DNA from: Patescibacteria group bacterium
GTDB lineage: Bacteria > Patescibacteriota > Minisyncoccia > Phycocordibacterales > UBA2100
Direction of reading: 5' to 3'
DNA: 60,687 nt
Assembly: GCA_038062075.1 (NCBI GenBank)
Contig: JBBTXY010000019.1
Coordinates: 1 to 60,687, forward strand
Below the pieces are notes generated by a model. That model searched no databases. It was given only the letters and a program-made list of their open reading frames with translations, and was not told the DNA's origin. Below, piece by piece: positions 4,558 to 42,392 of the stretch; the first letter of the stretch is position 1, and every line of letters begins with the position of its first letter. The translations under genes were made by a program, and so were the position numbers.

Positions 4558-6252
4558 ATGCCCGCACAGTTCAACGAACGCAAGCAGGAGGAGCGCCTCG
4601 AGGAATTGCATAAGCGAGAAGAAGAGCAGCTCGCCCAAATGCTCGCCTCCAAATACGGCGTGGAGTACGTCGATCTCACCAAAAAGTCGATCGACACCGA
4701 CGCCCTGCGCCTCATTCCCGAAAAAGGGGCCCGAGATGCGGAGGTCGCCGCATTCCACAAATTGAACAAGAAGCTCTGGGTCGCGATGCGCGCGCCGGAG
4801 CGCCCCGATTCCGCACAAACGGTCGAGAACCTCGTGCGCCTTGGCTTTGAAGTTCGCCGCTTCATCGTCTCGCGCGCCTCTTTGGATCACGCCTGGGACC
4901 GTTACCACGACCTCTCCTTCGCCACCGAGACGGAGGCGGGCATTCTCACCCTCTCCAACGAGACCATCCAGCGCATGCTCGCAGAATTAAAGACCTTAGA
5001 CGATGTCCGCAACCACATTAAGGAGCACATGGGGAGTAAAGATACGCACCGCATCTCCCGCGCTTTGGAAGTCACTATGGCCGGCGCGCTCTCACTTGGC
5101 GCATCCGACGTGCACTTGGAGCCGGAGGAGAATGGTGTGCGCATGCGCTACCGCCTCGACGGCGTCCTCATCGAAGTTCTCATGTTCGACGCGCCGACCT
5201 ACGCGCTTCTCTCGTCGCGCCTGAAGCTTCTCTCTGGATTGAAACTTAACATCAAGAATGCGGCGCAGGATGGACGCTTCTCCATCGTCGTCAATGAAAA
5301 AGAGATCGAGATACGTACCTCGGTCCTCCCCGGCGCGTATGCGGAAACTATCGTCATGCGTATCTTGGACCCGACGACGATCGCGCTCCCCATGGAAAAA
5401 CTAGGCTTCGACCAGTACCTCATGGAGATATTCGAGCGCGAGATCGCAAAACCCAACGGCCTCCTCTTGAACACCGGCCCCACGGGAAGCGGTAAGACGA
5501 CGACCTTGTACGCATTCCTCCGCAAAGTCTCGAATCCTGGCATCAAGGTCGTCACGATCGAAGACCCGATCGAATACCACCTCCCCGGCGTCGTGCAGAC
5601 ACAGGTCTCAAAAGATTACACTTTCGCCTCAGGGCTGCGTTCCACCTTGCGCCAAGACCCGGATGTCATCATGGTCGGCGAGATCCGCGACAGCGAAGTC
5701 GCTTCAACGGCGGTGAATGCCGCACTCACCGGGCACCTCGTCTTCTCGACCTTGCACACGAACGACGCCGCGGGCACCTTCCCCCGCCTCATTGACATGG
5801 GGGTGAATCCCGACATCTTAGGCGCTGCCATTACCGTCTCCATGGCGCAGCGCCTCGTGCGTAAATTATGCGAGTTCTGTCGCGTCGCAACGCCGATTAC
5901 GGGAAACGATGCGAAAACGATGGAGCCGTTGCTCGCGCACCTCCCGCCCCCGGAAGGCTTACCGGCGAACCGCGACACGATGTGGACGGCGAAGGGATGC
6001 GAGAAATGCGGCGGCATCGGCTACAAAGGACGCATCAGTGTCGTTGAAGTTATTCTCATGGATAAAGCTATCGAGGAGACCGTCCGCCGGACGTCGAGCG
6101 ATCGCGAGATATGGAAGGCCTCACGGCCTCAGCAGATACGCCGCATGGCGCAGGATGGCGCGGTGAAAGTGCTGAATGGCATCACATCGCTCGATGAATT
6201 GGGCCGCGTCGTCGATCTGCACGACGAAGTGATGCTCGAAACTCTCTCATGA
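4558..6252 (+). CDS. GspE/PilB-family type II/IV secretion (type IV pilus assembly) ATPase
   Basis: Walker A GPTGSGKTTT, Asp/His boxes and a tetracysteine motif (CEFC...CEKCGGIGYKGR), with a T2SSE_N-like N-terminal domain. Confidence 0.9.
   Translation: MPAQFNERKQEERLEELHKREEEQLAQMLASKYGVEYVDLTKKSIDTDALRLIPEKGARDAEVAAFHKLNKKLWVAMRAPERPDSAQTVENLVRLGFEVRRFIVSRASLDHAWDRYHDLSFATETEAGILTLSNETIQRMLAELKTLDDVRNHIKEHMGSKDTHRISRALEVTMAGALSLGASDVHLEPEENGVRMRYRLDGVLIEVLMFDAPTYALLSSRLKLLSGLKLNIKNAAQDGRFSIVVNEKEIEIRTSVLPGAYAETIVMRILDPTTIALPMEKLGFDQYLMEIFEREIAKPNGLLLNTGPTGSGKTTTLYAFLRKVSNPGIKVVTIEDPIEYHLPGVVQTQVSKDYTFASGLRSTLRQDPDVIMVGEIRDSEVASTAVNAALTGHLVFSTLHTNDAAGTFPRLIDMGVNPDILGAAITVSMAQRLVRKLCEFCRVATPITGNDAKTMEPLLAHLPPPEGLPANRDTMWTAKGCEKCGGIGYKGRISVVEVILMDKAIEETVRRTSSDREIWKASRPQQIRRMAQDGAVKVLNGITSLDELGRVVDLHDEVMLETLS
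6187..6250. repeat. left copy of a perfect 64-bp direct repeat (the last 21 codons of the pilB-like gene)
   Basis: Identical to 9539..9602. Identity extends to 69 bp with one mismatch (6182..6250 versus 9534..9602). Confidence 0.9.
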
Positions 6253-17675: not shown

Positions 17676-18016
17676 AGTAAAGTGTGTAATTTAATTTTTT
17701 ATTTAATACTTATTATTACTATTAGTGGTGTTGATAGGTGGAAAAGTTTTAAAAATGTAGGTATATGGTGGTGATTTTCATAAGGAATGTTGTGGATTAG
17801 TGTGGGTATTGCTGTTGGTGTGAGGTGTGGATTGTTGTTTTGTAGGGAATATATTTTTTCATTCAGGTGTTGTTGTGTTCGTTCTCAACAGGTTATCGAC
17901 AGGCCCTATACCAAAACTCTCAACATATTTTCCACAGTTGTTCATAGATTTGATTGGGGCACTTGTGTTCCGTGGTGAACATCTCATTCATACATTGAGT
18001 TTGGTACGGGGTAGGG
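17676..18016. other. candidate oriC (AT-rich unwinding region plus DnaA-box-like 9-mers)
   Basis: A very AT-rich stretch at 17676-17760. Boxes: TGTGGATTA at 17791-17799, TGTGGATTG at 17826-17834, TTATCGACA at 17893-17901, TTTTCCACA at 17928-17936. Located between dnaA and dnaN. Confidence 0.6.
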
Positions 18017-19372
18017 TTATACATGCACGAGGGAGCGGATGTGTTCCAATTCTTGCTCGAGGATGTTGTTCCGTTTTACTTCTTCTTTTATCTTCTCGCA
18101 CGAGTGGATGACGGTCGTGTGGTCGCGTCCGCCCAATTTTTCTCCAATAGAAGGGTAGGACACATTGAATTCCTCACGGAGGATATACATGATGATCTGC
18201 CGCGGCTTCACCACTTCCTTTTTGCGGGTCTTTTCGTAAATGCTCTTCTCGGCGATCTCGTAGTACTGTGCGATGCGGCGGACCACTTCCTCGACGGAGA
18301 CCCCCTTGTTGGGGCGGATGTTGTGTTTAATGAGAGCGCGGACGTCCGGGAGTGAGATGGTCTTCCCTTTCAGTTGTGATTTGCAGACGATCATGTTGAG
18401 GATGCCTTCGAGCTCACGGATGTTGCCCCGCACATTCTCGGCGATATAGGCAACAATGTCGTCGGCGAGGCTAAAGCCCAACTGCTCGACTTTCGCTCGG
18501 ATGATCGCTGCGCGCGACTCCACATCAGGCTCGGGGATCTCCATAATGATGCCCCCTGAAAGGCGCCCGCGGACGCGCTCTTCGAAGCCGGGGAGGAGCA
18601 TAGGATGCTTATCACTCGAGAAAATGATCTGCTTGTTGTTGTCGTGCATCGCGTTGAAGAGGTGGAACAATTCCTCTTGCGTGCGCTCTTTCTCTGCCAT
18701 GAATTGCACGTCGTCCATGATGAGGACGTCGTACTGGCGGTACTGGTCCTTGAACTCATTGGCGCGCCCCTTCTGGACGGCGTTGATGAAGTCGACCGCG
18801 AAACGCTCCGACGAGACGTAGAAGACCTTTTTATTGCTGTGGTTTTTCTTGAAGTGGTTGCCGATGGCTTGGATGAGGTGGGTCTTTCCATGCCCCGTCG
18901 AACCGTAGACGAAAAAGGGGTTATAGGCTAATCCGGGGCGCTCGACGACTGCTTTTGCAGCAGCATGTGCGAGTTGGTTGAAAGGGCCGACGATGAACGT
19001 GTCGAAAGTGTAGCGCGGGTTCAGGTTGTCGCGCTTATCGATGTAGAGGGTGCCGAGATCGAGGGCGGCGTTCTCTTGTGCTGATTGGTGTTTTTCGGGA
19101 CGACGCTCTCCCCCTATTGCTACCGAGCGGTGGACGACGTAGTCAACGGAGCGGATAGTATTATCTAAGGTGCGCAGAGTCCCCAAAATAAGCTTGTGAT
19201 GCTTATCCATGAGCCATTCCTTGACGATCTTTGAAGGGACCGCGACCTGTACGATGCTCGCGTCACGCGAAACAATATCGGTATTACGGAACCACGTCCG
19301 GAAACTAGCTTGCGAGGTGCCAAGCTCGATTTGCACCAAAGCGTTCTGCCATAGCTCGCGATTACTCGTCAT
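18017..19372 (-). CDS. dnaA: chromosomal replication initiator DnaA
   Basis: AAA+ motifs (GSTGHGKTHL, LIMDDVQF) and the C-terminal DnaA-box-binding domain (GGRDHTTVIHSCEKI). Confidence 0.97.
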   Translation of the reverse strand: MTSNRELWQNALVQIELGTSQASFRTWFRNTDIVSRDASIVQVAVPSKIVKEWLMDKHHKLILGTLRTLDNTIRSVDYVVHRSVAIGGERRPEKHQSAQENAALDLGTLYIDKRDNLNPRYTFDTFIVGPFNQLAHAAAKAVVERPGLAYNPFFVYGSTGHGKTHLIQAIGNHFKKNHSNKKVFYVSSERFAVDFINAVQKGRANEFKDQYRQYDVLIMDDVQFMAEKERTQEELFHLFNAMHDNNKQIIFSSDKHPMLLPGFEERVRGRLSGGIIMEIPEPDVESRAAIIRAKVEQLGFSLADDIVAYIAENVRGNIRELEGILNMIVCKSQLKGKTISLPDVRALIKHNIRPNKGVSVEEVVRRIAQYYEIAEKSIYEKTRKKEVVKPRQIIMYILREEFNVSYPSIGEKLGGRDHTTVIHSCEKIKEEVKRNNILEQELEHIRSLVHV

Positions 19373-19685
19373 ATGCTAGAGATTCTTAGCGAGCGCAGCA
19401 ACTTGAGAGGCTCTTGCATTCCGCCCCAATTTTGAATGCAAAACGTTATGTCATCAGAGCCTGTTTTAGATGGATGAGTACTCAGACAGACTCTCTTTCC
19501 ATCCGTATCAAAATTGGGGCGGGACAGGCGCACGCACATAGTGGGGACATTATACGCTTATCACTTGGTTGTGGAAGTCATACAAGAAGGCACCAAAGAT
19601 GTTCACAAGGTGTGTACAACGTGGGGATAGGAGGAGAGCTCTTCGAGAGTGGTAAAAAGCGAAGGATCGTGCTACTCTTCTGTGC

Positions 19686-19820
19686 ATGAAGCGAAACTAC
19701 CAACCGAAGAAGAAAAAGCGAGCCACAACGCACGGATTCCGCGCGCGTCTGAAGACGAAAACAGGGATGCGGGTTCTCGCGCGCCGTCGCCGGAAGGGGC
19801 GCGCACGACTTGCGCTCTAA
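19686..19820 (+). CDS. rpmH: 50S ribosomal protein L34
   Basis: Hand translation gives [44 protein letters not shown]. At 44 aa it is below the ORF-track cutoff. Its stop overlaps the rnpA ATG (TAATG). Confidence 0.9.
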
Positions 19821-20155
19821 TGCCAAAGAACTATCGTCTCACACGAGCTGATTTCGCTCGTATGCGGGGCTTCAAACGACTCCCAGGAGAGCTTTTCTCG
19901 CTCTCCTATGGCGCCATTCCTGGTCGAAAGATGCCAGGATTCGCCTGTGTGGTGTCTGCCAAAGCTATCGCTCGCGCCTCTGCCCGCAATACGGTAAAAC
20001 GCCGGTGCCGTGCCGTGTTTCGAAGGATCGTCGATACGCGGCACCCTCTCGTGTACGTTTATTATGCGAAAAAAGCGGCGCAGAGCGCTCCCTTTGGTGA
20101 GGTAGAGCGCGATGTACGTGCGCTCTATGCGCGGGTGCACTCTCCTCTCGCCTAG
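19820..20155 (+). CDS. rnpA: RNase P protein component
   Basis: [12 protein letters not shown]... with the RNR-like basic motif (ARNTVKRRCR). The position directly after rpmH is canonical. Confidence 0.85.
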   Translation: MPKNYRLTRADFARMRGFKRLPGELFSLSYGAIPGRKMPGFACVVSAKAIARASARNTVKRRCRAVFRRIVDTRHPLVYVYYAKKAAQSAPFGEVERDVRALYARVHSPLA

Positions 20156-20182
20156 CGGGATACGACAAGATACAATACCCCG

Positions 20183-20941
20183 ATGTTCTCATATTTGTTC
20201 TCGGCACTTATCTACGACCCGCTTTACAACGGGCTTATTTATTTGGTGGATGTCGTGCCCGCGCATGATGTGGGTATTGCCGTTGTCATTCTCACCGTCG
20301 TGGTGAAGATCATACTCTTTCCCCTCTCGAAACAGGCTATCCGCACGCAAGCGGCGATGCGCACTATCGCGCCGGAGATCGAAGAGATAAAGAAACGTCT
20401 CAAGGACAAACAGGAAGAGCAGGCACGCGCCATCTTTGCACTCTACCGTGAGCGCGGCGTCCGTCCTTTCTCGAGTTTTCTCCTCATCCTCATCCAGCTC
20501 CCTATCCTCATCGGTCTCTACTGGGTGTTCTGGAAAGGAGGGCTCCCGAGCGTGGATGTCTCACTTTTGTATTCGTTCGTGTCTGCCCCCGAGACGATCA
20601 ACATGGACTTTTTGGGTTTTCTTGATATGGGTGAGCGCAGCATCGTGCTTGCGATACTCACCGCCCTCACTCAATTTACGTATACGCGTCTTTCCATGGG
20701 TCCGCGGCAGCCGCGCCCTGCAGAGGCATCCCCCTCGTTCTCAACGGACATGGCGCGGAGCCTCGATCTGCAGATGCGCTACATCTTGCCGCTCTTTATT
20801 GGCGGCATCGCGCTCACGCTCGCCTCGGCCGTATCACTCTACTGGACGACGAGCAACATCTTCATGATCTTGCAAGAGCTCGCGATGGGGCGGCGCTTCA
20901 CGGAGAAGGCCGCTCTGTTACAGGCGTCCAAAAGCGCTTGA
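20183..20941 (+). CDS. yidC: membrane protein insertase YidC (short form)
   Basis: Five-TM Oxa1/YidC core (LFPLSKQAIRTQAAMRTIAPEIEEIKKRLKD). Canonical rnpA-yidC-jag order. Confidence 0.9.
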   Translation: MFSYLFSALIYDPLYNGLIYLVDVVPAHDVGIAVVILTVVVKIILFPLSKQAIRTQAAMRTIAPEIEEIKKRLKDKQEEQARAIFALYRERGVRPFSSFLLILIQLPILIGLYWVFWKGGLPSVDVSLLYSFVSAPETINMDFLGFLDMGERSIVLAILTALTQFTYTRLSMGPRQPRPAEASPSFSTDMARSLDLQMRYILPLFIGGIALTLASAVSLYWTTSNIFMILQELAMGRRFTEKAALLQASKSA

Positions 20942-20987
20942 AAAGGCTCTATTTGGTAGAGCGCGGGTTTCGTGGTAAACAAAGGGC

Positions 20988-21473
20988 ATGCTACGCGAAG
21001 CCCACACGATCCTCGAAGAGTTCCTTGCCGCGATGGGAGCGCAGTATTCCGGCATTTCAGAGGCGAGTGTGGCCGGGCAGACCGTTCTTACTATTGCAGC
21101 AGAGGACGCGAAACTCTTGATCGGCGCGCATGGCGACACCATCCATGCGATCGATTTTTTGGTGAAGCGGATACTCGAGCAGCGGCGTCTTGCGAGCACT
21201 CTCGTGCATGAGGGTGCTTCTCCGGAAGAGCCACATTTTCTCATTGATGTGAACGACTATCGCGCGCGGCAGATTCGCGATCTGCAATCGAAGGCCTTGA
21301 TGATGGCCGAGCGCGCGCGAAGCTTCCAATATGACGTCGAGCTCTCTCCCATGAGCGCCTACGAGCGCCTTATCGTCCACACGACTCTGCAGGATGCGCC
21401 GAACGTGAAGACCGAATCGCAGGGCGAAGGGCGCAATCGCCGCGTTGTTATCCGGTACACCAGCACTACTTAA
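20988..21473 (+). CDS. Jag/KhpB-like RNA-binding protein (KH + R3H domains)
   Basis: C-terminal R3H-like segment (ERLIVHTTLQDAPNVKTESQGEGRNRRVVI). Follows yidC. Confidence 0.8.
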   Translation: MLREAHTILEEFLAAMGAQYSGISEASVAGQTVLTIAAEDAKLLIGAHGDTIHAIDFLVKRILEQRRLASTLVHEGASPEEPHFLIDVNDYRARQIRDLQSKALMMAERARSFQYDVELSPMSAYERLIVHTTLQDAPNVKTESQGEGRNRRVVIRYTSTT

Positions 21474-21505
21474 TTGTCACAAAGTGTTTGTATGTTGGCT
21501 GGCGC

Positions 21506-21856
21506 TTATTGGCCTTTCACGGAGCGGAGAATGTTGAGGTTAAGAATATCGGGGTTGATCTGATTAAGAATGAGCCAGACGCTGAGTAGGAGAAGAAGGC
21601 CGAGAACAGCTTGACTGATGATCTCGCGCGCATTTTGTTTCTGCTGGAAAAGATCAGTCGTCATGTATTTGAAACCAGCGTAGCCGAGGCGCAGAACCGC
21701 AAGTATCGCACCTATTGCAAGCGCGGTGTAGAAGAGCGCGGAGAAAAAGTCCGCGAGGCTCGAATTGGGGTCGAAGAGCGCCGAGAGTTGCGACGGCTGC
21801 ACTGCCGTTTCTTGGAGCAGGACCTGTCCGAGGGGTGGTTGTGTATTCGGGTCCAT
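21506..21856 (-). CDS. TrbC/VirB2-like pilin candidate (two-TM hairpin protein)
   Basis: 116 aa with two hydrophobic helices (FFSALFYTALAIGAILAVL and AVLGLLLLLSVWLIL) separated by a basic loop. It is the last gene of the VirB4 operon, 2 nt after the previous stop. Confidence 0.45.
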   Translation of the reverse strand: MDPNTQPPLGQVLLQETAVQPSQLSALFDPNSSLADFFSALFYTALAIGAILAVLRLGYAGFKYMTTDLFQQKQNAREIISQAVLGLLLLLSVWLILNQINPDILNLNILRSVKGQ

Positions 21857-23122: not shown

Positions 23123-24169
23123 CTATTGATTTGTGAACGGATCAGTGCCGAAGATAGTCGCATTTCCCTGTATGAAGGTCAGCTGCCACGAGCCTGTGGC
23201 GCGCAGAAAGATGTCGGTGAGGCTCGTGAGCGAGAGCTCGATCGTCGCAGGGCCGGTGTAGTTGTTCGTGGTGATGAGGAGCGTGTGTGGTGCCTTTGGA
23301 TCGGGTGTGACGTTTTGGTCGTTCACGCGCCACACGTAGGTGAGCGACTGGTCGCGCGGCGACTCGACGTGGGCAAAGTAGGCAAAAGCAACAACTTCCT
23401 CTTCGGTCTCCGTCGTACGCGCGCCTGAAACGAGCGCGCGGTGGAAGAGCACCCCGAAGAGCGGATGGTTTTCGTAAAGCTCGAGCGAAGGATCCACTGA
23501 TTGAATGCGAGTGCGCGCTTCCCCGCGCAGCGTACCGTCAGTCGACTCTGCGACGACGCGGATATCGTCGGTCCCGAAAAGTGTTGGGCCGGGGAATGAG
23601 AACGATGACCTGCCGCGTCCGGAGGACATCCTGGTGTTCCCTTTGTACCACGTGTAAATGATGGATGTGTCGGGAAGAAGCGTGCCATTCGTTTGTTTGA
23701 ATCGCGCGAGCGCCTGCGCGCGGATAATTGCGCTCGTTCCCGGGAGCGCACGTCCCTCATAAAAGGGAGGCACATAGGAATCCGACTCCCACAGAAGATC
23801 GACCTCGGTGGGGCGGATCGTCGCTTGTGCGCTTCCGATAAGGCCCGCCTCATCCTCCGCAACGACCTCGACAGTCGTGCGTGAGCCAAGTGCTCCTGCG
23901 GTGACCGAGGCAGTCGTTACGCCGGTGCCGCGGGCAATTTCTTTCTCGTTCTCGTACCACACGACTTCACTACGATTAAGGTCGAGCCCGTAGCTCTGCA
24001 CGGTGAGACGCACGGTGTCTCCCGACATTGGGTACTCCGGCGTCATCGAGAGTGTAAGCGGCCGCTCGAGCCCCGTGAGTGAGAATTGCGCGCGCGCGGC
24101 AGGCGCATAAGCAAGGGAGAGGAGCGTGCCTGTAATAGTGAGAGAAACGAGAGAGAGGCGTGCGATCAT
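23123..24169 (-). CDS. secreted protein of unknown function
   Basis: Clear signal peptide (MIARLSLVSLTITGTLLSLAYAPAARA), beta-rich and repetitive. Its start overlaps the VirB4 stop by 4 nt. Confidence 0.5.
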   Translation of the reverse strand: MIARLSLVSLTITGTLLSLAYAPAARAQFSLTGLERPLTLSMTPEYPMSGDTVRLTVQSYGLDLNRSEVVWYENEKEIARGTGVTTASVTAGALGSRTTVEVVAEDEAGLIGSAQATIRPTEVDLLWESDSYVPPFYEGRALPGTSAIIRAQALARFKQTNGTLLPDTSIIYTWYKGNTRMSSGRGRSSFSFPGPTLFGTDDIRVVAESTDGTLRGEARTRIQSVDPSLELYENHPLFGVLFHRALVSGARTTETEEEVVAFAYFAHVESPRDQSLTYVWRVNDQNVTPDPKAPHTLLITTNNYTGPATIELSLTSLTDIFLRATGSWQLTFIQGNATIFGTDPFTNQ

Positions 24170-27100
24170 AGCGGCTGCGGGCCAGGCGGGAGCGGCGTCT
24201 GCGGCGGGATGATAGGGGCGCTTGGCGGAGGCTCAAGCGGTGTGCTGGCAGATAATGCCGAAGAAGAAGGTGGCGTTGTAGGAGGAGAGAACGACTGGAT
24301 TGGTGTGGGTGCCGGGGTGGGGATTGATTGAGGTGGAAGAGGCGATGGTCCTGGAGCGATTTCTGGCAGGGATTCGGATGCTGCTTGTTGCGGGACGCCA
24401 CTCATCTCTTTGAGCGCCGCCGCCTGCAGGGTCGCCGCAGCGCTTGAGACTTGGGTTCTCTCTGGCGCGGCAAACGCTTGTTCCGCGTCGAGTTCCGAGG
24501 AGCGCGCGAGTTCTTGTTTTGCCTTTTTGATGGCGAGGATCTGCGAGGGGTCGGACGTGATGATCTGGTCTTCGGTGTACGAGGCGATGACCTTAATGGC
24601 GACGTGCTTCAAGCCGGCGAAGAAAATCCCCTCCCCCACATCCGACTCCAACAACAAATATTTCTCTTCATCCGACAACTTAAACGTTTGCTGCACAAGG
24701 TCGACGGATGTGGGGGATTGGCGCAAAAGTATTTGGATCGATGAGTTGGTGATCATGGCAGTCCCGTAGGGTGAGGTCAAAAAGTCGTTCACGTCCTGCG
24801 TGATCGTTGAGAGACCGAGGTAGTATTTGCGGCCGCGCTTCGCGATACCGAAGAGGAAGGAAGCGGTGTCCTGCGATTTCATCATCCACCACGCCTCGTC
24901 GATGACGAGTAATCTCTTGCGCAGCTCTTTGCGCACCGTATTCCAGATGTGGTGCGTGATGATGTACATCGCGACGGGCTTCAGGTCATCTTCCATGTCG
25001 CGCACGGAAAAGACCACGAGCTTTTTGTTCATGTCGACGTTCGTCGGGCGGTTCATGAAACCCGACCAGGTGCCCTTCGTATACTTCGAGAGGCGCGCGA
25101 CCAAGGAGTCCGATCCCTCCATGCCGGAGAGGACGAGTTCGAAGTCGGAGAGAAGGGGCGGCTCGACGGACGCGAAGTTGGCTTCCGCAGTGATGTCTTT
25201 GAGCGCATAGGTTTCCGTGATTGCTCTGTCGATGACTGCGTCTTCTTCAGGCGTAAGGCCGCCGAGCATGATGCGGAAGAGGCCTACAAGCGTGATGATG
25301 TTGTTGCGCAGGATGTCTCCTGGACTTTCGTCCTCACGTGGAATGGGAAGATCGAAGGGGTTGATGTGGTGCTCGGAGGAGAGTGAAATATTAAAGTAGC
25401 GGCCGCCGACGGTCTCTGCAAGGTATTCATATTCACGTTCCGGGTCGATGACGATGACTTCCGTGTCGAACATGAGGGAGCGCAAAATTTCGAGTTTCGT
25501 GGTGTACGAGTTGTGTACGAACATGCCGCCGTGCCCTGCGAGAAACACCTCATCATCGACCGTAAGATCGTAGACGTACTTGTCTTTTTTGTTCGGCTTT
25601 TTGACGATCGACACGATCGGGTCCCAAAAAAGGTCTGCATTCGCGAGTGTCTTGAAGGTGGCAACGATTTCCTCGACGCGGTTCAGATTTTGCAGCGTGC
25701 GATGATACTCGTGCACGATGAATTGCGCCGCCGTGCGCAGGAGTTCGTACGACGAATTGTCACGCGTGCCATTGAGCGTTCGCGCCAAGTACTCATCAAA
25801 CCCGTTTGCATGAACATTAACTCGTTCGACGCCTTCCGAGATCATTCCCTTCAAGTCGTCGACCGTTTTAGGGGCATCTACCCCTGCAGTCTCGAATATT
25901 TTGAGCGCATTTTTCGTTCGTGGCGGCATACCTTGCTTTACGGTAAACCACGAACTGCTCAGTTTTTCGATAAGTGTGCGATTGAGCTCGCGATCCTCGT
26001 CGGCTTTTTTGACAATCGCTTCTACCGTCGGTAGATCTTGGAGTTTCTGCATGAAAGGATACAAGTCTTTGAACCTTTGCACGCGTGCCTCCATCATCTC
26101 GACGAGTTTTCCAAGCCGTTTCGGCGAGAGATCGTGTCCTTGCTTGAGTGCGGAAAAATCTGAAATGTCCGAGAGCTGCGTGTCAAAAAGCCCCGCCAGC
26201 TCCTGTGCAAGCGGCTGCAGTCCCGGGACGATGTCGCAATTGGTGTTTTCTACTTTCGTGGTAAGCCGCGCGAGCGCTTCTTTTTTGCGTGTTGAGATAA
26301 AACCTATGTGCTCCTGGAACTTGCGGAGATTGTCCTGTCCCGAGATGCTCATCTGCCAAAACGTCCGCTTGCGACCGGTTTTTGCGTATGTTTTCTGTCG
26401 TCGGTGAATCCGCACGATGATACCGAAGTAGTAGCACAGATAGGAAAGGTCTGAAATGAGTGCGCGTGATTTTGAAAGTGCAGTGACTGCGGCGCCATCT
26501 ACTCCACCGTCACCCTCGAAATAGGCACGGAGGTATGCAGCGACTGCTTCTCGGGGCGCATCGAATATGGGTCCCGCTACGTGCTTTTTGTGAGAGAGGC
26601 CTGCGCCTCGAATACCATGCACATAGTCGCGGAACGCGCTGCTGTAAATTGCAATCCACCGTGGATGGCTACCATGTCGAAGACTGAGTGCTGCGCAGCA
26701 GCGTTTAATGTCGGCAAGCCCCTCGGGGTCTTCATTACTAATAATAATAGAGCGGTCTGTGGTGCTTCCTTCGGCAGCGATCCAGCCAAGAAGAGCGCCT
26801 AAATCTGGAGACATCGGCGTCAGTGTTTGTGTGGCAGCAACCGTGATTGACCGTGGAAGCGGGATATACTCTCCCTCTTTCACATCCTCGCTTTTTGCAG
26901 CAACAACTCTCCCATCTCGCAAAACAAGCATATTGTGATCTGCTGTGGTTGTAATTTCGCGACCGCTTTTTGTTGTGAATGTGTAGTATGTGTCAGTGGC
27001 ATCCTTACGCGCTGCGACCGACACTTTACTCCAACGCCCTTTCATGTGCTTGTCGAAGCTAAATACTTCCACGTCGGGATCGATAACCCCCTCAAGCTCC

Positions 27101-28014
27101 TCATCAATTTGTGTCGCACCATGCTTCCGAATGAGTGCGTCGATATACAGGCCAATTTCTACGTTGCGAACCACTCCGCGGTCTCGCATCAGAACGCGTT
27201 CCTTGACAAATATCGATTTTCCCGCTCCGCTTTTTGCGAATGTGACCGAATTATAGTTCTCCAAACTAAATCGATCGAACAAAATCAACGACGAATTGTG
27301 TCGGTTGATGCCGTAGAGGATGCCGCGATCCGAGGTGAGGTCGAAGGAGATGAAAGGGAAAATAGATGAGAGCGGCGCGGAATTAAGCTTCGTGTGCACG
27401 TTGAGTTCATCAGTTGCGAGGGGCAAGACCGAGCGGAATCCTTGCTCCTGCTGGAAGAGTGCCGGGCGGATGTACACAAGACGGCTCTCAAGGATGGAGC
27501 GGATTTCTGATTCCACCTTATCAATATCCTCGCGCGTCGAGCCGTAAATGGTGAGGTAGAGACCGACTTCGAAAATGCGCTCTTGCGCCTGCTGGAGGGA
27601 GTCGCGCAGTTTTTCAAGGTCCGCGTAGGCGGTGTCGAGGATTGGGTCGCGCACCATGCCCTTCTCTTCGCGCGTCGCGATCTGGCTCTGCACCTCGGCG
27701 ACCTTTTTCTGGAATTTACGGAGCATCTCGTTGGTGTCCATTGGGTGGATGTAGATGGAAACATCGAGGACCTTGTCCATATTAATGATGGGTGCGAACC
27801 ACCCCGTGGTGAGAAATCTGGGGTAAGAAATGACGAAGAACGTGCGCGCGATTTTTTCGCCGAGATCAAGTTCGCGCGGGGATATCTTCAGCGCGTGCGG
27901 GGCGATAACGTCCTGAAGGCCGAGGACGCCCGTGCGATAGATTTCTTCCGGAAGGACCGGCAAGACCGTCGCCGGTTCGGCCGTTTTTCTGGTGAAGAAA
28001 TCAAAGAGTGCCAT
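24166..28014 (-). CDS. VirB4/TrbE-family type IV secretion ATPase, interrupted by an intein; Pro-rich C-terminal tail
   Basis: VirB4 N-domain pattern (ISYPRFLTTGWFAPII), Walker A KSGAGK|S split at residue 266/267, Walker B LLVIDEAWWMM, downstream GLSTITQD. The last ~90 aa are Pro/Ser-rich. Confidence 0.9.
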   Translation of the reverse strand: MALFDFFTRKTAEPATVLPVLPEEIYRTGVLGLQDVIAPHALKISPRELDLGEKIARTFFVISYPRFLTTGWFAPIINMDKVLDVSIYIHPMDTNEMLRKFQKKVAEVQSQIATREEKGMVRDPILDTAYADLEKLRDSLQQAQERIFEVGLYLTIYGSTREDIDKVESEIRSILESRLVYIRPALFQQEQGFRSVLPLATDELNVHTKLNSAPLSSIFPFISFDLTSDRGILYGINRHNSSLILFDRFSLENYNSVTFAKSGAGKSIFVKERVLMRDRGVVRNVEIGLYIDALIRKHGATQIDEELEGVIDPDVEVFSFDKHMKGRWSKVSVAARKDATDTYYTFTTKSGREITTTADHNMLVLRDGRVVAAKSEDVKEGEYIPLPRSITVAATQTLTPMSPDLGALLGWIAAEGSTTDRSIIISNEDPEGLADIKRCCAALSLRHGSHPRWIAIYSSAFRDYVHGIRGAGLSHKKHVAGPIFDAPREAVAAYLRAYFEGDGGVDGAAVTALSKSRALISDLSYLCYYFGIIVRIHRRQKTYAKTGRKRTFWQMSISGQDNLRKFQEHIGFISTRKKEALARLTTKVENTNCDIVPGLQPLAQELAGLFDTQLSDISDFSALKQGHDLSPKRLGKLVEMMEARVQRFKDLYPFMQKLQDLPTVEAIVKKADEDRELNRTLIEKLSSSWFTVKQGMPPRTKNALKIFETAGVDAPKTVDDLKGMISEGVERVNVHANGFDEYLARTLNGTRDNSSYELLRTAAQFIVHEYHRTLQNLNRVEEIVATFKTLANADLFWDPIVSIVKKPNKKDKYVYDLTVDDEVFLAGHGGMFVHNSYTTKLEILRSLMFDTEVIVIDPEREYEYLAETVGGRYFNISLSSEHHINPFDLPIPREDESPGDILRNNIITLVGLFRIMLGGLTPEEDAVIDRAITETYALKDITAEANFASVEPPLLSDFELVLSGMEGSDSLVARLSKYTKGTWSGFMNRPTNVDMNKKLVVFSVRDMEDDLKPVAMYIITHHIWNTVRKELRKRLLVIDEAWWMMKSQDTASFLFGIAKRGRKYYLGLSTITQDVNDFLTSPYGTAMITNSSIQILLRQSPTSVDLVQQTFKLSDEEKYLLLESDVGEGIFFAGLKHVAIKVIASYTEDQIITSDPSQILAIKKAKQELARSSELDAEQAFAAPERTQVSSAAATLQAAALKEMSGVPQQAASESLPEIAPGPSPLPPQSIPTPAPTPIQSFSPPTTPPSSSALSASTPLEPPPSAPIIPPQTPLPPGPQPL
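25510..27216 (-). mobile_element. 569-aa intein with a LAGLIDADG homing-endonuclease domain, inserted in the VirB4 P-loop
   Basis: Ser1 (SIFVKERV), block B TTADH, LAGLIDADG motifs LLGWIAAEGS and YLRAYFEGDGGV, and C-terminal VYDLTVDD...GMFVHN followed by +1 Ser. Joining the exteins restores GAGKSYTTK. Confidence 0.8.
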
Positions 28015-28709: not shown

Positions 28710-29216
28710 TTAGCGCACGATGGCGTCTTTGGCGGTGCGTACCGGTGCGACGATGTCGGGAAGGGGCGAAGCATTCTCCCGATCTACCGTGTCAGCAGTC
28801 CCTGCCGCGATGCGCTCCTTGATGTCGAGGCTCCAGGCGAGCTCGTGCAGTTTGCTTTCAGAAAGGTGCGGCACGTAGGGAGCGGCCGCTGGCGTTGTTG
28901 GCGCGGACGAAGCGAGTTTCTTCTGCGTCTCAAGAGCCTCTTCATTGCTCCAGAGGTAGAGCTTGCTCTTTATGAGGTAGAAGAATCCGTGCTCGAGAGC
29001 CGCGATGAAGGGTTGTCCGTTGTAGGTAAGGAAGGCGAGGGCCGCGCCAAAGCCGAGGAGGGCAAGGATAAGGGGACCGGCGACGTAGACAGGAAGCGTA
29101 CGCCAGAGCATGTAGCTTAAGCCCGCACTCCCCGCGAGGTAGACGAACTGCTTGAAGGTGAGAGGGCCAAAAATCTTGTCCTCGACCTCAATGAACTGTG
29201 GCACTTGAAACTGCAT
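28710..29216 (-). CDS. PrgI-family (VirB3-like) membrane protein
   Basis: The N-terminus MQFQVPQFIEVEDKIFGPLTFKQFVYLAG followed by two TM helices matches my recollection of PrgI-family proteins of Gram-positive-type T4SS. Confidence 0.6.
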   Translation of the reverse strand: MQFQVPQFIEVEDKIFGPLTFKQFVYLAGSAGLSYMLWRTLPVYVAGPLILALLGFGAALAFLTYNGQPFIAALEHGFFYLIKSKLYLWSNEEALETQKKLASSAPTTPAAAPYVPHLSESKLHELAWSLDIKERIAAGTADTVDRENASPLPDIVAPVRTAKDAIVR

Positions 29217-29220
29217 GGGA

Positions 29221-29675
29221 TAGCTGTCAGCTTTCAGCTTCTAGCTTTCAGGAAAAACGCATCCAACAAGCGCTAGTTGCTAGCCTTCAGTCCATTTATC
29301 ATACCATGCAACATACGGCAGACTTCCGACAAGAGTTGGCTGATTTCACTAAATTTGCTGTCATTGCAATACGAGAGCTTGTTGCTGATAATAAGTTGTG
29401 TTTCGAGTTCCGTGCCGGATCCAAGAGCCGTATGAAGAAAGTTTACAAAGTCTTTTGAGGTGCTGCGGCTTCGTCCTTCGGCAATATTCGATGGAATTGA
29501 AATGGCCGCCCTGCGCATTTGAGAAGCGAGTCCATACACTTCTCTCTGTGGGAAGTTTTCCGTGAGTTTGTATACCTGGATAACCAGCTCGATGGACTTT
29601 TGCCACACAAGCAGATCTTTGTATGACTGTGCTGTTTTCATGCCCGAAAGCTGAAAGCTGATACCTGAAAGCTAC
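29221..29675 (-). mobile_element. IVS-like cassette: four-helix-bundle gene bracketed by AGCTTTCAG/CTGAAAGCT inverted-repeat arms
   Basis: Left arm 29221-29252 (tAGCTGTCAGCTTTCAGcttctAGCTTTCAGg). Right arm 29645-29675 (cgaaAGCTGAAAGCTGatacCTGAAAGCTac). The right arm overlaps the stop codon of the upstream gene. Confidence 0.45.
29273..29641 (-). CDS. four-helix-bundle protein (23S rRNA intervening-sequence protein / S23p family)
   Basis: YKDLLVWQKSIELVIQVYKLTENFPQREVYGLASQMRRAAISIPSNIAEG...FLHTALGSGTELETQL is the characteristic pattern of this family. Confidence 0.85.
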   Translation of the reverse strand: MKTAQSYKDLLVWQKSIELVIQVYKLTENFPQREVYGLASQMRRAAISIPSNIAEGRSRSTSKDFVNFLHTALGSGTELETQLIISNKLSYCNDSKFSEISQLLSEVCRMLHGMINGLKASN

Positions 29676-40844: not shown

Positions 40845-42392
40845 CTAGACCAGTTCGCGTGTGCGATACTGCAAAGCCTCCAGCATGTGCGGAGGCTCGA
40901 TAATTTCTGAAACAGCAAGGTCAGCAATGGTGCGGGCGAGTTTGATGGTGCGGTGATAGCCGCGCGGGGAGAGACGCATGCGCGTTGCGGCCTCGATGAG
41001 CGCGGCCTCGGCTTTGTCGGAGAGTTCCGCAAAGGCTTCAATGTCTCTCGCACGCATGTCGGCATTTGTACTGAGCTTTTTATTGTTTTTGAATCGCGTT
41101 CGCTGGATCTCACGAGCGCGCTCGATGCGCTCGCGCGCCTTTTCTGTTTCTCCTCCTGCTCGCTTCCCGCGCGACGAAAGTGATTCGAGCGGCATTTCAG
41201 GCACCGTGACCCACATATCGATCCTGTCGGCGATGGGGCCGGAGATTTTTCGCCGGTATTTCTCCACGATGTGCGGCATACACTCACAGCGCGGCGTTCC
41301 CCAGAAGCCGCAGGGGCAAGGGTTTAAGGCGGCGATGAGCATGAAATTCGCGGGGAATGTTGCCGAGCTCTTCGAGCGCGCGATGGAGACAACGCCGTCT
41401 TCCAATGGCTCGCGCAAGGCCTGAATGACGTCGCGGTGGAATTCGGGGAATTCGTCGAGGAAAAGGACGCCGCGATGCGCAAGCGTTGCCTCGCCGGGGC
41501 GCACCGTTCCGCCCGAGCCGCCGCCGATCAAGGATGCGTATGAGGAGGTGTGGTGCGGGCTGCGCAAAGGCGGGCGGAACACCGCGTCTCTCTGGAGGAC
41601 ACCGGCAAGCGAGTGAATGGTAGTCACCTCGATCGTCTCCTCGTCAGTGAGGTCGGGAAGAATGGAGGCTGCTGCGCGTGCGAGCATGGTCTTTCCTGTT
41701 CCCGGCGGGCCGTAGAGCGCGATGTTGTGCCGCCCCGCGGCTGCGATCTCAAGGCCGCGTTTCGCACTCTCTTGCCCCCTGATCTCGTCGAGTGCTGGCT
41801 CGGTGTCGGTGTGGCGGGGACGCTTGCGCGGCTTGAAAATCGTATCAGCGTCTCCCCGGAGTGCTGCAACGGTCGCTTCGAGGCTTGTAAGAGGGTGGGT
41901 ATGCAGGCCTCCAACGAGGGATGCCTCTTCGGCGTTCTCTTCCGGGATATAGAGATCGGTGAATCCGCGTTCGCGGGCTGCCGCAGCAATGGAGAGCGTG
42001 CCGCGAATACCGCGCACTTCGCCATCAAGCGCAAGTTCCCCTGCAAAGAGCTTTCCCTTTGGATCGAAGCGCACCTGTTCGGAGGCGAGGAGAAACGAGA
42101 GCGCAAGCGGCACGTCGAAAACCGCCCCTTCCTTTTTCAAGGCTGCGGGGGCGAGCGAGAGTACGATCTTTTTGTTGCTGCGCTTGGGCGATTCGAGCCC
42201 GCTATTTTTGATCGCCGAGGCGATGCGATCTTTCGCTTCCTCGACCGATTTATCAGGAAGTCCCACGATCGAGAACGCATGCAAGCCCTTCACGATGTCG
42301 CACTCGACGGAGACGACCGTTGCATGTGGAAGCGCCGGTTGTGCGCCGAAAACGCGCGCGAATCCGGAGGCAATGGTCTGCTTATGAGCCAC
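40845..42392 (-). CDS. YifB/ComM-family Mg-chelatase-like AAA+ ATPase
   Basis: Lon-protease-like N-domain, GPPGTGKTM Walker A, LFLDEFPEF, and the C-terminal helical domain typical of ComM/YifB. Confidence 0.9.
   Translation of the reverse strand: MAHKQTIASGFARVFGAQPALPHATVVSVECDIVKGLHAFSIVGLPDKSVEEAKDRIASAIKNSGLESPKRSNKKIVLSLAPAALKKEGAVFDVPLALSFLLASEQVRFDPKGKLFAGELALDGEVRGIRGTLSIAAAARERGFTDLYIPEENAEEASLVGGLHTHPLTSLEATVAALRGDADTIFKPRKRPRHTDTEPALDEIRGQESAKRGLEIAAAGRHNIALYGPPGTGKTMLARAAASILPDLTDEETIEVTTIHSLAGVLQRDAVFRPPLRSPHHTSSYASLIGGGSGGTVRPGEATLAHRGVLFLDEFPEFHRDVIQALREPLEDGVVSIARSKSSATFPANFMLIAALNPCPCGFWGTPRCECMPHIVEKYRRKISGPIADRIDMWVTVPEMPLESLSSRGKRAGGETEKARERIERAREIQRTRFKNNKKLSTNADMRARDIEAFAELSDKAEAALIEAATRMRLSPRGYHRTIKLARTIADLAVSEIIEPPHMLEALQYRTRELV

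What the first reader, a model, noticed from the sequence alone, without database searches (positions are those of the whole stretch)
25510..27216. Large LAGLIDADG intein splitting the Walker A lysine-serine of the VirB4 ATPase
The 1282-aa VirB4 ORF contains a 569-aa in-frame insertion exactly between K266 and the P-loop Ser. The sequence reads FAKSGAGK | SIFVKERV...GMFVHN | SYTTK.

It carries the canonical intein hallmarks:
- A Ser1 nucleophile.
- Block B TxxH (TTADH).
- Two LAGLIDADG motifs (LLGWIAAEGS and YLRAYFEGDGGV).
- A terminal His-Asn followed by a +1 Ser.

Excision would restore GAGKSYTTK. The machine's only recognisable motor therefore depends on protein splicing.

The intein is also unusually long. 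About 200 aa of helical sequence lie between the second LAGLIDADG motif and the C-terminal splicing blocks, and I cannot assign that region. I do not recall inteins being described in VirB4-family ATPases.
Basis: partly seen in the sequence, partly recalled or inferred. Interest (0 to 1): 0.75.

Follow-up and report, generated by a model that had tools for sequence, protein, structure and literature searches.

The report
Homing intein splitting VirB4's ATP site
A self-splicing, mobile protein insert (an intein with its own DNA-cutting enzyme) sits in the ATP-binding loop of the secretion-system ATPase VirB4 of an ultrasmall Kaiserbacteria-like bacterium; it is real and textbook in design, and belongs to a family spread across these bacteria that the searched literature does not mention.

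Summary
ORF 24166..28014 (-) encodes a 1282-aa VirB4/TraC ATPase. It carries a 569-aa in-frame insert (window 25510..27216) between Walker-A K266 and the P-loop Ser.

Intein-free orthologues from Kaiserbacteria/Paceibacterota are 91-96% identical. They read GAGK-SYTTK without a gap.

The insert is a canonical class-1 intein:
- Ser1, TxxH, block F/G, His-Asn and +1 Ser are all present.
- It carries a two-motif LAGLIDADG homing endonuclease.
- Pfam, PDB sequence, AlphaFold2 and Foldseek evidence all agree.

The unassigned ~200-aa helical stretch lies where accessory domains (ACDs) of endonuclease-bearing inteins are known to lie. Its first ~65 aa are homologous to the HTH_3 module of archaeal MCM P-loop inteins. 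The remaining ~135 aa match nothing in the libraries searched.

The element is not unique. Sixty GTDB species representatives, mostly labelled Patescibacteria, carry the same intein family. The 55 loci whose N-junction could be read have it at the same K|S site.

Novikova et al. 2016 already list five VirB4 inteins, and P-loops are a known intein hotspot.

Verdict: a genuine, probably splicing-competent, mobile intein. It is a new member of a known kind, with an enlarged accessory domain as the only unexplained part.

The parts
24166..28014 (-). virB4/traC-like T4SS ATPase gene, intein-containing precursor (1282 aa)
   Evidence: Pfam P-loop_TraG (E 6.6e-21) on aa 836-1123. The spliced product is 91-96% identical over 100% of its length to 630-730-aa VirB4/TraC proteins of Kaiserbacteria/Paceibacterota.
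27217..28014 (-). N-extein (aa 1-266), ending in Walker A ...KSGAGK
25510..27216 (-). Intein (569 aa): Hint splicing domain + LAGLIDADG endonuclease + accessory helical domain
   Evidence: GC3 is 0.55 against 0.70-0.76 in the exteins.
26842..27216 (-). N-terminal Hint half (blocks A and B; Ser1; T91-A-D-H94 at 26935-26946)
   Evidence: Over 44 complete family members, S1 is >=90% conserved and T91, D93, H94, N95 are invariant or nearly so. PDB sequence match to PI-PkoII (2cw7), E 2.8e-36.
26257..26814 (-). LAGLIDADG homing-endonuclease domain (motif 1 LLGWIAAEGS 26764-26793; motif 2 YLRAYFEGDGGV 26500-26535)
   Evidence: Pfam LAGLIDADG_3, E 2e-17. Foldseek matches I-DmoI (TM 0.61-0.67 normalised to the target) and the PI-SceI, PI-PfuI and TliVMA inteins. 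The acidic residues E149 and D236 are >=90% conserved.
25636..26253 (-). Accessory helical domain (ACD), intein residues 322-527, about 12 helices
   Evidence: AF2 pLDDT about 86-90. No Pfam hit. No PDB or BFVD fold match: best E about 0.09, TM <=0.31. Only 26 representative clusters among 1.84 billion match its profile.
26041..26241 (-). First ACD module (intein residues 326-392): NTN-D-x-x-P linker plus a degenerate HTH_3-like unit
   Evidence: hhalign gives Prob 92-96%, E 3e-9 to 6e-7, to the post-endonuclease module of archaeal MCM inteins. In the first intein of P0158 that module is Pfam HTH_3, E 2e-10.
25510..25635 (-). C-terminal Hint half (blocks F and G: DLFWDP...YVYDLTVDDEVFLAGHGGMFVHN)
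   Evidence: V548, Y549, D550, L551, H568 and N569 are invariant across 43 aligned inteins.
24166..25509 (-). C-extein, starting with the +1 Ser (the Walker A Ser): SYTTKLEIL...; includes Walker B LLVIDEAWW and a Pro-rich tail
28710..29216 (-). PrgI/VirB3-like membrane protein of the same T4SS cluster (context)
   Evidence: Pfam PrgI, E 4.7e-10. Syntenic in L001.
21506..21856 (-). T4SS pilin (VirB2-like) of the same cluster (context)
   Evidence: Pfam T4SS_pilin, E 1.8e-8.

Best explanation
The 569 codons are a canonical class-1 intein carrying a LAGLIDADG homing endonuclease. It is a selfish mobile element lodged in the Walker-A loop of the chromosomal VirB4 ATPase of a Kaiserbacteria-like (Patescibacteria) bacterium.

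Inferred mechanism, from established intein chemistry:
1. The precursor is translated as one 1282-aa chain.
2. Ser1 makes an N-O acyl shift at the K266-S267 bond.
3. The +1 Ser (S836) attacks the resulting ester.
4. Asn569, assisted by His568, cyclises to release the intein.
5. An O-N shift leaves the native peptide GAGK-SYTTK, that is, an intact P-loop and an active VirB4.

The freed intein, or the precursor, then acts as a site-specific endonuclease. It cuts intein-free virB4 alleles at the sequence encoding GxGK|SY, so that repair copies the intein in (homing).

The ~200-aa helical domain between the endonuclease and the C-terminal splicing blocks is an enlarged accessory domain. Its first module is a degenerate XRE/HTH_3-type unit. 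It most likely extends or modulates DNA target recognition.

The element belongs to a family spread through Patescibacteria at this one site. It is related to archaeal MCM inteins that sit at the same K|S position of their own P-loop.
For: Shown:
- Clean insertion, absent from 120/120 listed top orthologues (91-96% identical) and from all 8 aligned.
- Pfam Hint and LAGLIDADG hits above their cut-offs.
- PDB sequence hits to PI-PkoII (E 2.8e-36) and to VMA inteins.
- Confident AF2 model, pLDDT 86.6, pTM 0.80. Its best folds are the TliVMA intein, PI-TkoII, PI-PfuI, PI-SceI and I-DmoI.
- Every catalytic position is conserved (>=90% or invariant) in 43-44 complete family members that are only 36-69% identical overall: S1, T91, H94, E149, D236, D550, H568, N569.
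- 60 independent species-level genomes carry the family, which excludes an assembly artefact. The K|S junction was read in 55 of them. The matching HN|S C-junction was read in the 51 whose ORF continues through the intein.
- Extein protein is 96% identical to an intein-free allele while the DNA is only 80% identical, so the host gene is under strong purifying selection.
- Intein GC3 is 0.55 against 0.70-0.76 in the exteins.
- The intein-free allele P0001 is closer in extein sequence (96%) than any intein-bearing allele (<=92%). That sporadic distribution is what a homing cycle predicts.
- ACD module 1 is homologous to the HTH_3 module of MCM inteins.
- The whole intein is 27% identical over 407 aa (E 9e-32) to an MCM intein inserted at GVAK|C...HN|S.

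From the literature:
- ACDs lie between the endonuclease and C-Hint, and they modulate DNA cleavage (PMC8966425).
Against: - No experiment: neither splicing nor cleavage is shown.
- The Ser1/Ser+1 pair uses oxygen nucleophiles. From my own knowledge, these are often slower than Cys.
- The intein's identity tracks extein identity. Much of its history could therefore be vertical, and current homing activity is not proven.
- The HTH assignment of ACD module 1 is transitive only. There is no direct Pfam HTH_3 hit and no significant PDB HTH hit. It also has a ~5-residue deletion in the helix-turn region relative to MCM inteins.
- The remaining ~135 aa of the ACD have no homologue, so their DNA-binding role is pure inference.
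Confidence: 0.88

Rival explanations
1. The intein still splices but no longer homes. The endonuclease is inactive or its targets are exhausted, and the element persists by vertical descent, because imprecise loss would destroy the P-loop of a strongly conserved gene.
For: - Intein identity falls in step with extein identity: 66-70% at 89-92% extein identity, and 40-47% at 54-65%.
- The nearest intein-bearing relatives are only 66-70% identical, so there is no sign of very recent transfer.
- Shorter relatives exist (391, 511 and 524 aa), consistent with endonuclease decay in some lineages.
Against: - The LAGLIDADG acidic residues, and the invariant K211, K249 and S250, are kept in nearly all members.
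- Presence and absence is patchy among very close VirB4 alleles.
- The large ACD is conserved. There would be no reason to keep it if DNA targeting were dead.
Confidence: 0.25
2. The intein has been co-opted as a post-translational switch. Splicing is conditional (on redox state, temperature, metal or host contact), so the cell gates assembly of the T4SS by controlling when VirB4 gets a working P-loop. This T4SS was found essential for epibiotic growth in Saccharimonadia.
For: - Position in the catalytic P-loop means the precursor cannot bind ATP normally (inference from the sequence).
- Novikova et al. argue that P-loop clustering suggests benefit (PMC4760082).
- T4SS genes are reported essential for epibiotic growth in Saccharimonadia (PMC12102498).
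Against: - All 120 listed closest orthologues lack the intein and evidently do without it.
- There is no Cys at the splice junctions that could form a redox trap. The nucleophiles are Ser1 and Ser+1.
- The endonuclease and ACD are conserved, which fits selfish mobility rather than regulation.
- No data of any kind on conditionality.
Confidence: 0.07
3. The gene is a dead VirB4. The intein cannot splice and the locus is decaying into a pseudogene.
For: One related Kaiserbacteria-type protein (P0130) lacks the Walker A motif and the intein start. This shows that damaged alleles can occur.
Against: - The window ORF is intact over 3846 nt, with every splicing residue present.
- The exteins are 96% identical in protein but only 80% in DNA to an intein-free allele. 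That pattern reflects purifying selection, not decay.
- The neighbouring cluster genes are intact and syntenic.
Confidence: 0.04
4. The 569 aa are a lineage-specific VirB4 domain rather than an insertion.
For: None found.
Against: - All 120 listed top homologues are 628-732 aa and lack it.
- The alignment gap is exact.
- The segment matches intein and endonuclease profiles and folds.
Confidence: 0.01

Closest known systems
Archaeal MCM 'site a' P-loop inteins (e.g. the first intein of P0158 and P0160, returned)
   Same: - Inserted between the Walker-A Lys and Ser (GVAK|C...HN|S).
- Same domain order: Hint-N, LAGLIDADG endonuclease, NTN-D-x-x-P linker plus HTH module, SD-x-FWD, Hint-C.
- 27% identity over 407 aa, E 9e-32.
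- ACD module 1 is homologous, hhalign Prob 96%.
   Different: - The host protein is an AAA+ helicase of archaea, not a VirB4 of bacteria.
- Cys1 instead of Ser1.
- The ACD is shorter, about 95-155 aa. In the first intein of P0158 it has one or two canonical HTH units by Pfam (HTH_3 plus a below-cut-off HTH_31 hit).
- The window's ACD is ~205 aa, with a degenerate first HTH and ~135 aa without relatives.
PI-TkoII / PI-PkoII (PDB 2cw7) and the TliVMA intein (PDB 7qss)
   Same: - Best solved relative by sequence: 2cw7, E 2.8e-36.
- Best solved relative by fold: 7qss, E 8.5e-21.
- Hint + LAGLIDADG + accessory-domain architecture. The ACDs of both are described as HTH-like (PMC8966425).
   Different: - Archaeal DNA polymerase and V-ATPase hosts.
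- The ACDs are small.
- PI-TkoII has an extra domain between Hint-N and the endonuclease. The window's intein lacks this, but the 657-679-aa members of its family appear to have it.
VirB4 inteins listed by Novikova et al. 2016 (PMC4760082, Table 3: 5 inteins, COG3451, Firmicutes and Proteobacteria)
   Same: Same host protein family. Same general rule that inteins favour ATPase domains and P-loops.
   Different: - Different phyla.
- Their insertion site and sequences could not be checked, because the supplement is not held.
- A tblastn search with the window's intein against 72,556 plasmids found no relative. They are therefore probably a different intein lineage.
Other P-loop inteins (DnaB-b, RFC-a, and others cited by Novikova et al. 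2016)
   Same: Insertion inside the GxxxxGK[ST] loop, so host activity depends on splicing.
   Different: Different hosts. Relatedness to the present intein was not tested.

Membership tests
Class 1 intein (Hint splicing domain) | In-frame insertion in a conserved host protein, absent from orthologues, whose removal restores the conserved host motif | tested here: met
   a 569-aa gap exactly between K266 and S836. Orthologues read GAGKSYTTK.
Class 1 intein (Hint splicing domain) | Block A nucleophile (Cys/Ser) as first residue | tested here: met
   Ser1. Ser in 41 of 43 completely parsed relatives and Thr in 2.
Class 1 intein (Hint splicing domain) | Block B TxxH | tested here: met
   T91-A-D-H94. 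T91 and H94 are invariant in 43 inteins.
Class 1 intein (Hint splicing domain) | Blocks F and G with penultimate His, terminal Asn, and +1 Ser/Thr/Cys | tested here: met
   YVYDLTVDDEVFLAGHGGMFVHN|S. D550, H568 and N569 are invariant.
Class 1 intein (Hint splicing domain) | Hint profile and fold | tested here: met
   PF14890 scores 68.3 bits against a cut-off of 35.8. Foldseek top hits are solved inteins, prob 1.00.
Class 1 intein (Hint splicing domain) | Demonstrated protein splicing | not testable with these tools
   Needs expression plus western blot or mass spectrometry.
LAGLIDADG homing endonuclease (two-motif, monomeric) | Two LAGLIDADG helices, each ending in a catalytic Asp/Glu | tested here: met
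   LLGWIAAE149G and YLRAYFEGD236G. Both are >=90% conserved.
LAGLIDADG homing endonuclease (two-motif, monomeric) | Profile and alpha-beta-beta-alpha-beta-beta-alpha fold | tested here: met
   PF14528, E 2e-17. I-DmoI and I-Tsp061I matches, TM (target-normalised) 0.61-0.67.
LAGLIDADG homing endonuclease (two-motif, monomeric) | Site-specific cleavage of the intein-less allele | not testable with these tools
   Needs a cleavage assay on an intein-free virB4 target.
VirB4/TraC T4SS ATPase (Patescibacteria clade, MPF_FATA-related) | VirB4-type P-loop domain with Walker A and B | tested here: met
   PF19044, E 6.6e-21. Walker A is restored only after splicing. Walker B reads LLVIDEAWW. 91-96% identity to proteins named VirB4/TraC.
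VirB4/TraC T4SS ATPase (Patescibacteria clade, MPF_FATA-related) | Neighbouring T4SS genes (VirB3/PrgI, pilin), chromosomal near dnaA | tested here: met
   PrgI and T4SS_pilin. DnaA and YidC lie adjacent. This matches PMC12102498.
Intein accessory domain (ACD) of endonuclease-bearing inteins | Extra domain between the endonuclease and the C-terminal Hint half | tested here: met
   Residues 322-527 lie between the LAGLIDADG domain and block F. The definition comes from PMC8966425.
HTH_3 / XRE-type helix-turn-helix (for ACD module 1) | Match to the HTH_3 profile or to a solved HTH fold | tested here: inconclusive
   - No direct Pfam hit at E<=10.
- No significant PDB sequence hit; the best XRE protein, DdrOC, scores E 0.74.
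- No Foldseek hit.
- However, hhalign gives Prob 96% to an MCM-intein segment that Pfam itself calls HTH_3.

The most novel reading that the evidence does not exclude
The ~205-aa accessory domain is a new kind of target-recognition or regulatory module: one decayed HTH plus ~135 aa with no sequence or fold relative in the libraries searched. It would let one intein lineage hop between the GxGK|S sites of unrelated P-loop ATPases and across domains. The candidates are archaeal MCM, a HerA/DUF87 ATPase on a Micrarchaeota-labelled contig, and Patescibacteria VirB4. Alternatively, splicing is conditional and gates the T4SS that these epibionts appear to depend on.
Probability: 0.15. Interest if true: 0.6.

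Novelty: new member of a known kind. Interest (0 to 1): 0.35.

Why it matters
- **Annotation.** Intein-bearing VirB4 genes in Patescibacteria are currently labelled 'LAGLIDADG family homing endonuclease' or 'hypothetical'. They often appear as partial ORFs, so T4SS surveys can mis-size or miss them.
- **Biology.** T4SS genes were found essential for epibiotic growth in Saccharimonadia (PMC12102498). In lineages that carry the intein, VirB4 function depends on protein splicing. That makes a testable vulnerability and a possible control point.
- **Intein evolution.** The family links a bacterial VirB4 site to the archaeal MCM P-loop site. It is a concrete case for studying ectopic homing between P-loops.
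- **Protein engineering.** This is a large, confidently predicted accessory domain with no fold relative in PDB or BFVD, attached to a LAGLIDADG scaffold. ACDs have been shown to re-target cleavage (PMC8966425).

None of this overturns current understanding of inteins.

Tried and rejected
1. **Three tandem HTH repeats in the helical region.** hhalign of segment profiles built from 41-43 sequences gave seg1-seg2 E 0.015 (Prob 3%), with seg1-seg3 and seg2-seg3 weaker. seg2 and seg3 also failed against the MCM HTH modules. Only the first module is supported.
2. **Direct HTH evidence for module 1.** A PDB profile search gave only noise. Pfam at E<=10 gave nothing.
3. **Fold search of the ACD alone.** No significant hit against PDB or BFVD.
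4. **Insertion site of the published VirB4 inteins.** The supplement of PMC4760082 is not held.
5. **Plasmid-borne relatives.** tblastn against PLSDB found only one weak, unrelated LAGLIDADG hit.
6. **Context of P0130, the allele lacking Walker A.** It is not on record.
7. **The search for related loci with the fragmentary alignment A2.** It failed. The search was redone with the N-Hint alignment A4.
8. **Suspected second P-loop interruption in the ComM-like gene at 40845-42392.** This was a false alarm from my ATG-only gene caller. The GTG-started ORF is intact at 515 aa.
9. **Third large protein search.** Not used. A profile search for the nearest non-VirB4 inteins would probably have been saturated by VirB4 inteins in its 120 listed rows.

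Full report
**1. Observation**

The window carries one uninterrupted 1282-codon ORF on the minus strand, 24166..28014. Translating it places SIFVKERV...GGMFVHN at aa 267-835 (569 aa). That maps to window 27216..25510, exactly the finding's coordinates. The flanks read ...NSVTFAKSGAGK| and |SYTTKLEILRSL.

Pfam finds three domains above their curated cut-offs:
- Intein_splicing, aa 312-835, E 8.4e-19, 68.3 bits against a cut-off of 35.8.
- LAGLIDADG_3, aa 490-571, E 2e-17.
- P-loop_TraG, aa 836-1123, E 6.6e-21.

**2. It is an insertion, not a domain**

I searched with the conceptually spliced protein.
- The 120 best are all 628-732 aa, cover 96-100% of the query and are 91-96% identical.
- Where they carry a name, it is VirB4 / TraC / DUF87 / HerA-like, from Candidatus Kaiserbacteria or Paceibacterota.

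In an alignment of eight of them with the window's ORF, the only large gap is 569 columns. It falls exactly between K266 and S836, and every homologue reads SG[AS]GK-SYTTK.

The best intein-free allele (P0001) lies on a 31-kb contig, fetched as L001. That contig is syntenic with the window: PrgI, a TraC-like/TrsD gene, VirB4, then R3H, YidC, RnpA and DnaA.

Codon by codon, the two exteins are 96% identical in protein but only 80% in DNA. The host gene is therefore under strong purifying selection. The intein's GC3 is 0.55, against 0.70-0.76 in the exteins.

**3. Host and context**

The locus is a chromosomal, origin-proximal T4SS-like cluster. Its annotated members are:

| Gene | Window position | Strand |
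|---|---|---|
| DnaA | 18017-19372 | - |
| YidC | 20183-20941 | + |
| T4SS pilin | 21506-21856 | - |
| VirB4 | 24166-28014 | - |
| PrgI/VirB3 | 28710-29216 | - |

Further large proteins of the cluster have no Pfam match.

This is the arrangement described for Patescibacteria by PMC12102498:
- The VirB4 clade is MPF_FATA-related.
- There is usually no relaxase.
- The cluster is often next to dnaA.
- The VirD4-like coupling ATPase is usually encoded elsewhere.
- T4SS genes are essential for epibiotic growth in Saccharimonadia.

That paper does not contain the word 'intein'.

Among the cluster genes scanned, VirB4 is the only one with a recognised ATPase domain. A separate PilB/T2SSE ATPase lies at 4558-6252.

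**4. Anatomy of the intein**

*Sequence and structure matches*
- A profile of the family hits solved inteins by sequence: PI-PkoII (2cw7, E 2.8e-36), the Tli and Pho VMA inteins, TFIIB, CDC21 and PolII mini-inteins, and I-DmoI.
- AlphaFold2 with an 11-sequence alignment gives pLDDT 86.6 and pTM 0.80.
- Foldseek against the PDB ranks the TliVMA intein (7qss, E 8.5e-21), PI-TkoII (2cw7), PI-PfuI and PI-SceI first. Mini-inteins and I-DmoI follow.

*Domain order (intein numbering)*
- Hint-N, residues 1-~125.
- LAGLIDADG endonuclease, ~135-320.
- All-helical region, 322-527.
- Hint-C, 528-569.

*Conservation*

I compared 43 complete relatives recovered from genomes, which are 36-69% identical to the window. 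The following positions are invariant or at least 90% conserved:
- S1, and T91 / D93 / H94 / N95 (block B).
- E149-G150 (LAGLIDADG motif 1).
- F233-E-G-D236-G (LAGLIDADG motif 2).
- K211, K249, S250.
- Y549-D550-L551 (block F).
- H568-N569 (block G).

The +1 residue is Ser at every C-junction read. These are all the residues needed for class-1 splicing and for a two-motif LAGLIDADG active site.

**5. The 'unassigned' helical region**

Taken alone, it models confidently: pLDDT 86.3 with twelve helices.

It finds nothing as a whole:
- No Pfam family at E<=10.
- No PDB fold: best E 0.095, TM <0.26.
- No BFVD fold: best E 0.088.

A profile search of 1.84 billion cluster representatives gave only 26 hits. 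Full-length matches are all in fragments or in proteins of about 1200-1400 aa. The two I scanned with Pfam (P0143, P0150) are intein-bearing, and P0143 also has the TraG P-loop domain.

The first ~75 profile positions also match three archaeal MCM proteins. The match falls just after the LAGLIDADG domain of their inteins, in a segment that Pfam calls HTH_3. In P0158 that is residues 693-742, E 2e-10.

Profile comparison confirms the link:
- A3 against P0158: Prob 83.5%, E 8e-6.
- A 43-sequence profile of residues 326-392 against three such MCM modules: Prob 92-96%, E 3e-9 to 6e-7.

The Patescibacteria version has a ~5-residue deletion in the helix-turn part. It gives no direct HTH hit, so I call it a degenerate HTH_3-like module.

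My idea that the rest consists of two further HTH repeats was not supported.

The position between the endonuclease and C-Hint is that of the 'accessory domain' (ACD) defined by Beyer et al. 2022 (PMC8966425). Their findings:
- The ACDs of TliVMA and PI-TkoII are HTH-like.
- ACDs differ widely between inteins.
- Deleting or swapping them alters which DNA sites are cut.

The region is therefore an enlarged ACD. Its DNA-targeting role here is inferred, not shown.

**6. The element is one of a family**

With the intein alone as query, the word-indexed search found 15 clusters at 32-66% identity.
- All but one are in VirB4/TraC-like contexts of Patescibacteria.
- Most are partial.
- Eleven show G-x-G-K|S at the N-junction, one shows GARK|S, and three show VHN|SY at the C-junction.

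A scan of one genome per GTDB species with the N-Hint alignment returned 60 loci.

*Taxonomic labels*
- Kaiser-, Taylor-, Nealson-, Yanofsky-, Uhr-, Zambryskii-, Harrison-, Gribaldo- and Collierbacteria.
- Paceibacterota and Minisyncoccia.
- Many bins labelled Saccharibacteria.
- One complete Nealsonbacteria genome, CP179887.1.

*What the ORFs show*
- They are mostly 1190-1350 aa.
- I could read the K|[ST] junction in 55 loci.
- I could read the HN|S C-junction in the 51 whose ORF runs through the intein.
- For 43 loci I parsed complete inteins of 391-679 aa.

*Intein length classes*
- 30 of the 43 are 657-679 aa. They carry an extra ~100 aa between Hint-N and the endonuclease, which aligns with the corresponding insert of PI-PkoII.
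- The window's 569-aa form groups with the three closest relatives, L002-L004 (568-574 aa).
- The intein is therefore not unusually long for its family.

*Inheritance pattern*
- Intein identity to the window tracks extein identity: 66-70% at 89-92% extein identity, falling to 37-47% at 41-65%.
- The closest exteins of all (96%) are intein-free.
- This patchy pattern with long residence is what the homing cycle predicts. It does not prove present activity.

**7. Wider relationships**

The whole intein is 27% identical over 407 aa (E 9e-32) to the first intein of the archaeal MCM protein P0158. That intein is inserted at GEPGVAK|CVDG...FVHN|SRIL, the same Lys|Ser position of a Walker A loop.

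A 654-aa member of the same family, ACD included, sits at TGSGK|S...VHN|S of a ~520-aa HerA/DUF87-type ATPase. The contig is labelled Micrarchaeota (L055).

These observations suggest that this intein lineage has moved between P-loops of different ATPases, possibly across domains. I did not make a phylogeny, and MAG labels can be wrong.

**8. What is known**

- Novikova et al. 2016 (PMC4760082, Table 3) already list VirB4 (COG3451) with five inteins in Firmicutes and Proteobacteria. They stress that P-loops are intein hotspots, for example DnaB-b, MCM-a and RFC-a.
- I could not see where those five are inserted, because the supplement is not held.
- A tblastn of the window's intein against 72,556 plasmids found no relative. 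The published cases are probably another lineage.
- Full-text searches found no paper describing inteins in Patescibacteria VirB4.
- Database names for the relatives are 'LAGLIDADG family homing endonuclease, partial' or 'hypothetical protein'.

**9. Mechanism**

*Shown*
- The architecture.
- The catalytic residues.
- The exact restoration of the P-loop on conceptual excision.
- Family-wide conservation of the catalytic positions.

*Inferred from established intein and LAGLIDADG biochemistry*
1. Ser1 N-O shift.
2. Trans-esterification to Ser+1.
3. Asn569 cyclisation assisted by His568.
4. O-N shift giving GAGK-SYTTK.
5. Endonuclease cleavage of intein-free alleles, followed by gene conversion.
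6. ACD-assisted target recognition.

*Rivals (full evidence in their own section)*
- A splicing-only, homing-dead element (0.25).
- A conditional-splicing switch for the T4SS (0.07).
- A dead gene (0.04).
- A native VirB4 domain (refuted).

**10. Verdict**

It is a new member of a known kind:
- The host protein and the site type are both precedented.
- The Patescibacteria VirB4 family is widespread but was not found described.

The only unexplained part is the ~135-aa C-terminal portion of the accessory domain. Interest is moderate to low (0.35).

Noticed in passing
window 29273-29641 (-): A 122-aa '23S rRNA-intervening sequence protein' / bAvd-like four-helix-bundle gene (PF05635, E 4e-40) sits inside the T4SS cluster, between the PrgI gene and the upstream 193-aa gene. 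The syntenic intein-free locus L001 has no gene called there. It looks like a second small insertion in this cluster.
   Followed up: partly
L011, L033, L051 (N-junctions GSGK|TIHG, GSGK|TLDY, GSGK|TIRG): Three relatives have Thr instead of Ser as the first intein residue, with otherwise intact blocks and HN|S at the C-junction. From memory, Thr1 is at best very rare as an intein N-terminal nucleophile. Whether these splice is unknown.
   Followed up: no
L055 799-4323 (+): A contig labelled Candidatus Micrarchaeota carries a 654-aa member of the same intein family, accessory domain included. It sits in a ~520-aa HerA/DUF87/AAA_10 ATPase at TGSGK|S...VHN|S. Either this is a different host protein in an archaeon, or the contig is mis-binned.
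   Followed up: partly
protein P0130, no contig on record: A Kaiserbacteria-type VirB4 fragment carries an intein 66% identical to the window's. In it, ~17 residues spanning the Walker A motif and the start of the intein (NYNSVTFAKSGAGKSIF) are missing: it reads ...FDRFSLE-KNEVVLYRDHGVV... This may be a decayed allele or an assembly or gene-calling error.
   Followed up: partly
L030, L048, L049, L056, L061: MAGs labelled Gammaproteobacteria or Pseudomonadales carry VirB4 ORFs with this intein family at the same K|S junction. L056's extein is only 41% identical to the window's. The labels are probably binning or labelling errors rather than real hosts.
   Followed up: no
window 24166-24440 (-), VirB4 aa ~1190-1282: The C-terminal tail of this VirB4 is a long Pro/Ser/Thr-rich low-complexity stretch (...PSPLPPQSIPTPAPTPIQSFSPPTTPPSSS...PPQTPLPPGPQPL). 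It is longer than in the aligned orthologues, whose tails also differ from one another in length and sequence.
   Followed up: no
window 17800-21500: The T4SS cluster abuts the replication-origin gene set. DnaA and YidC are confirmed by Pfam. RnpA, R3H/Jag and a likely dnaN are assigned only by position and by synteny with L001. This matches the origin-proximal placement reported for Patescibacteria T4SS (PMC12102498).
   Followed up: partly
window 4558-6252 (+): A PilB/GspE-type ATPase (T2SSE, E 3.6e-111, plus the MshEN domain). It is a type IV pilus motor unrelated to the VirB4 cluster, and its P-loop is uninterrupted.
   Followed up: no
P0158 and P0160 (archaeal MCM): These MCM proteins each carry two large inteins. 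All four have an NTN-D-x-x-P linker after the endonuclease. The first intein of each carries a Pfam HTH_3 module there. The second intein of each showed hhalign similarity (Prob ~92-94%) to the window's first ACD module. This accessory module therefore looks widespread among archaeal P-loop inteins.
   Followed up: partly
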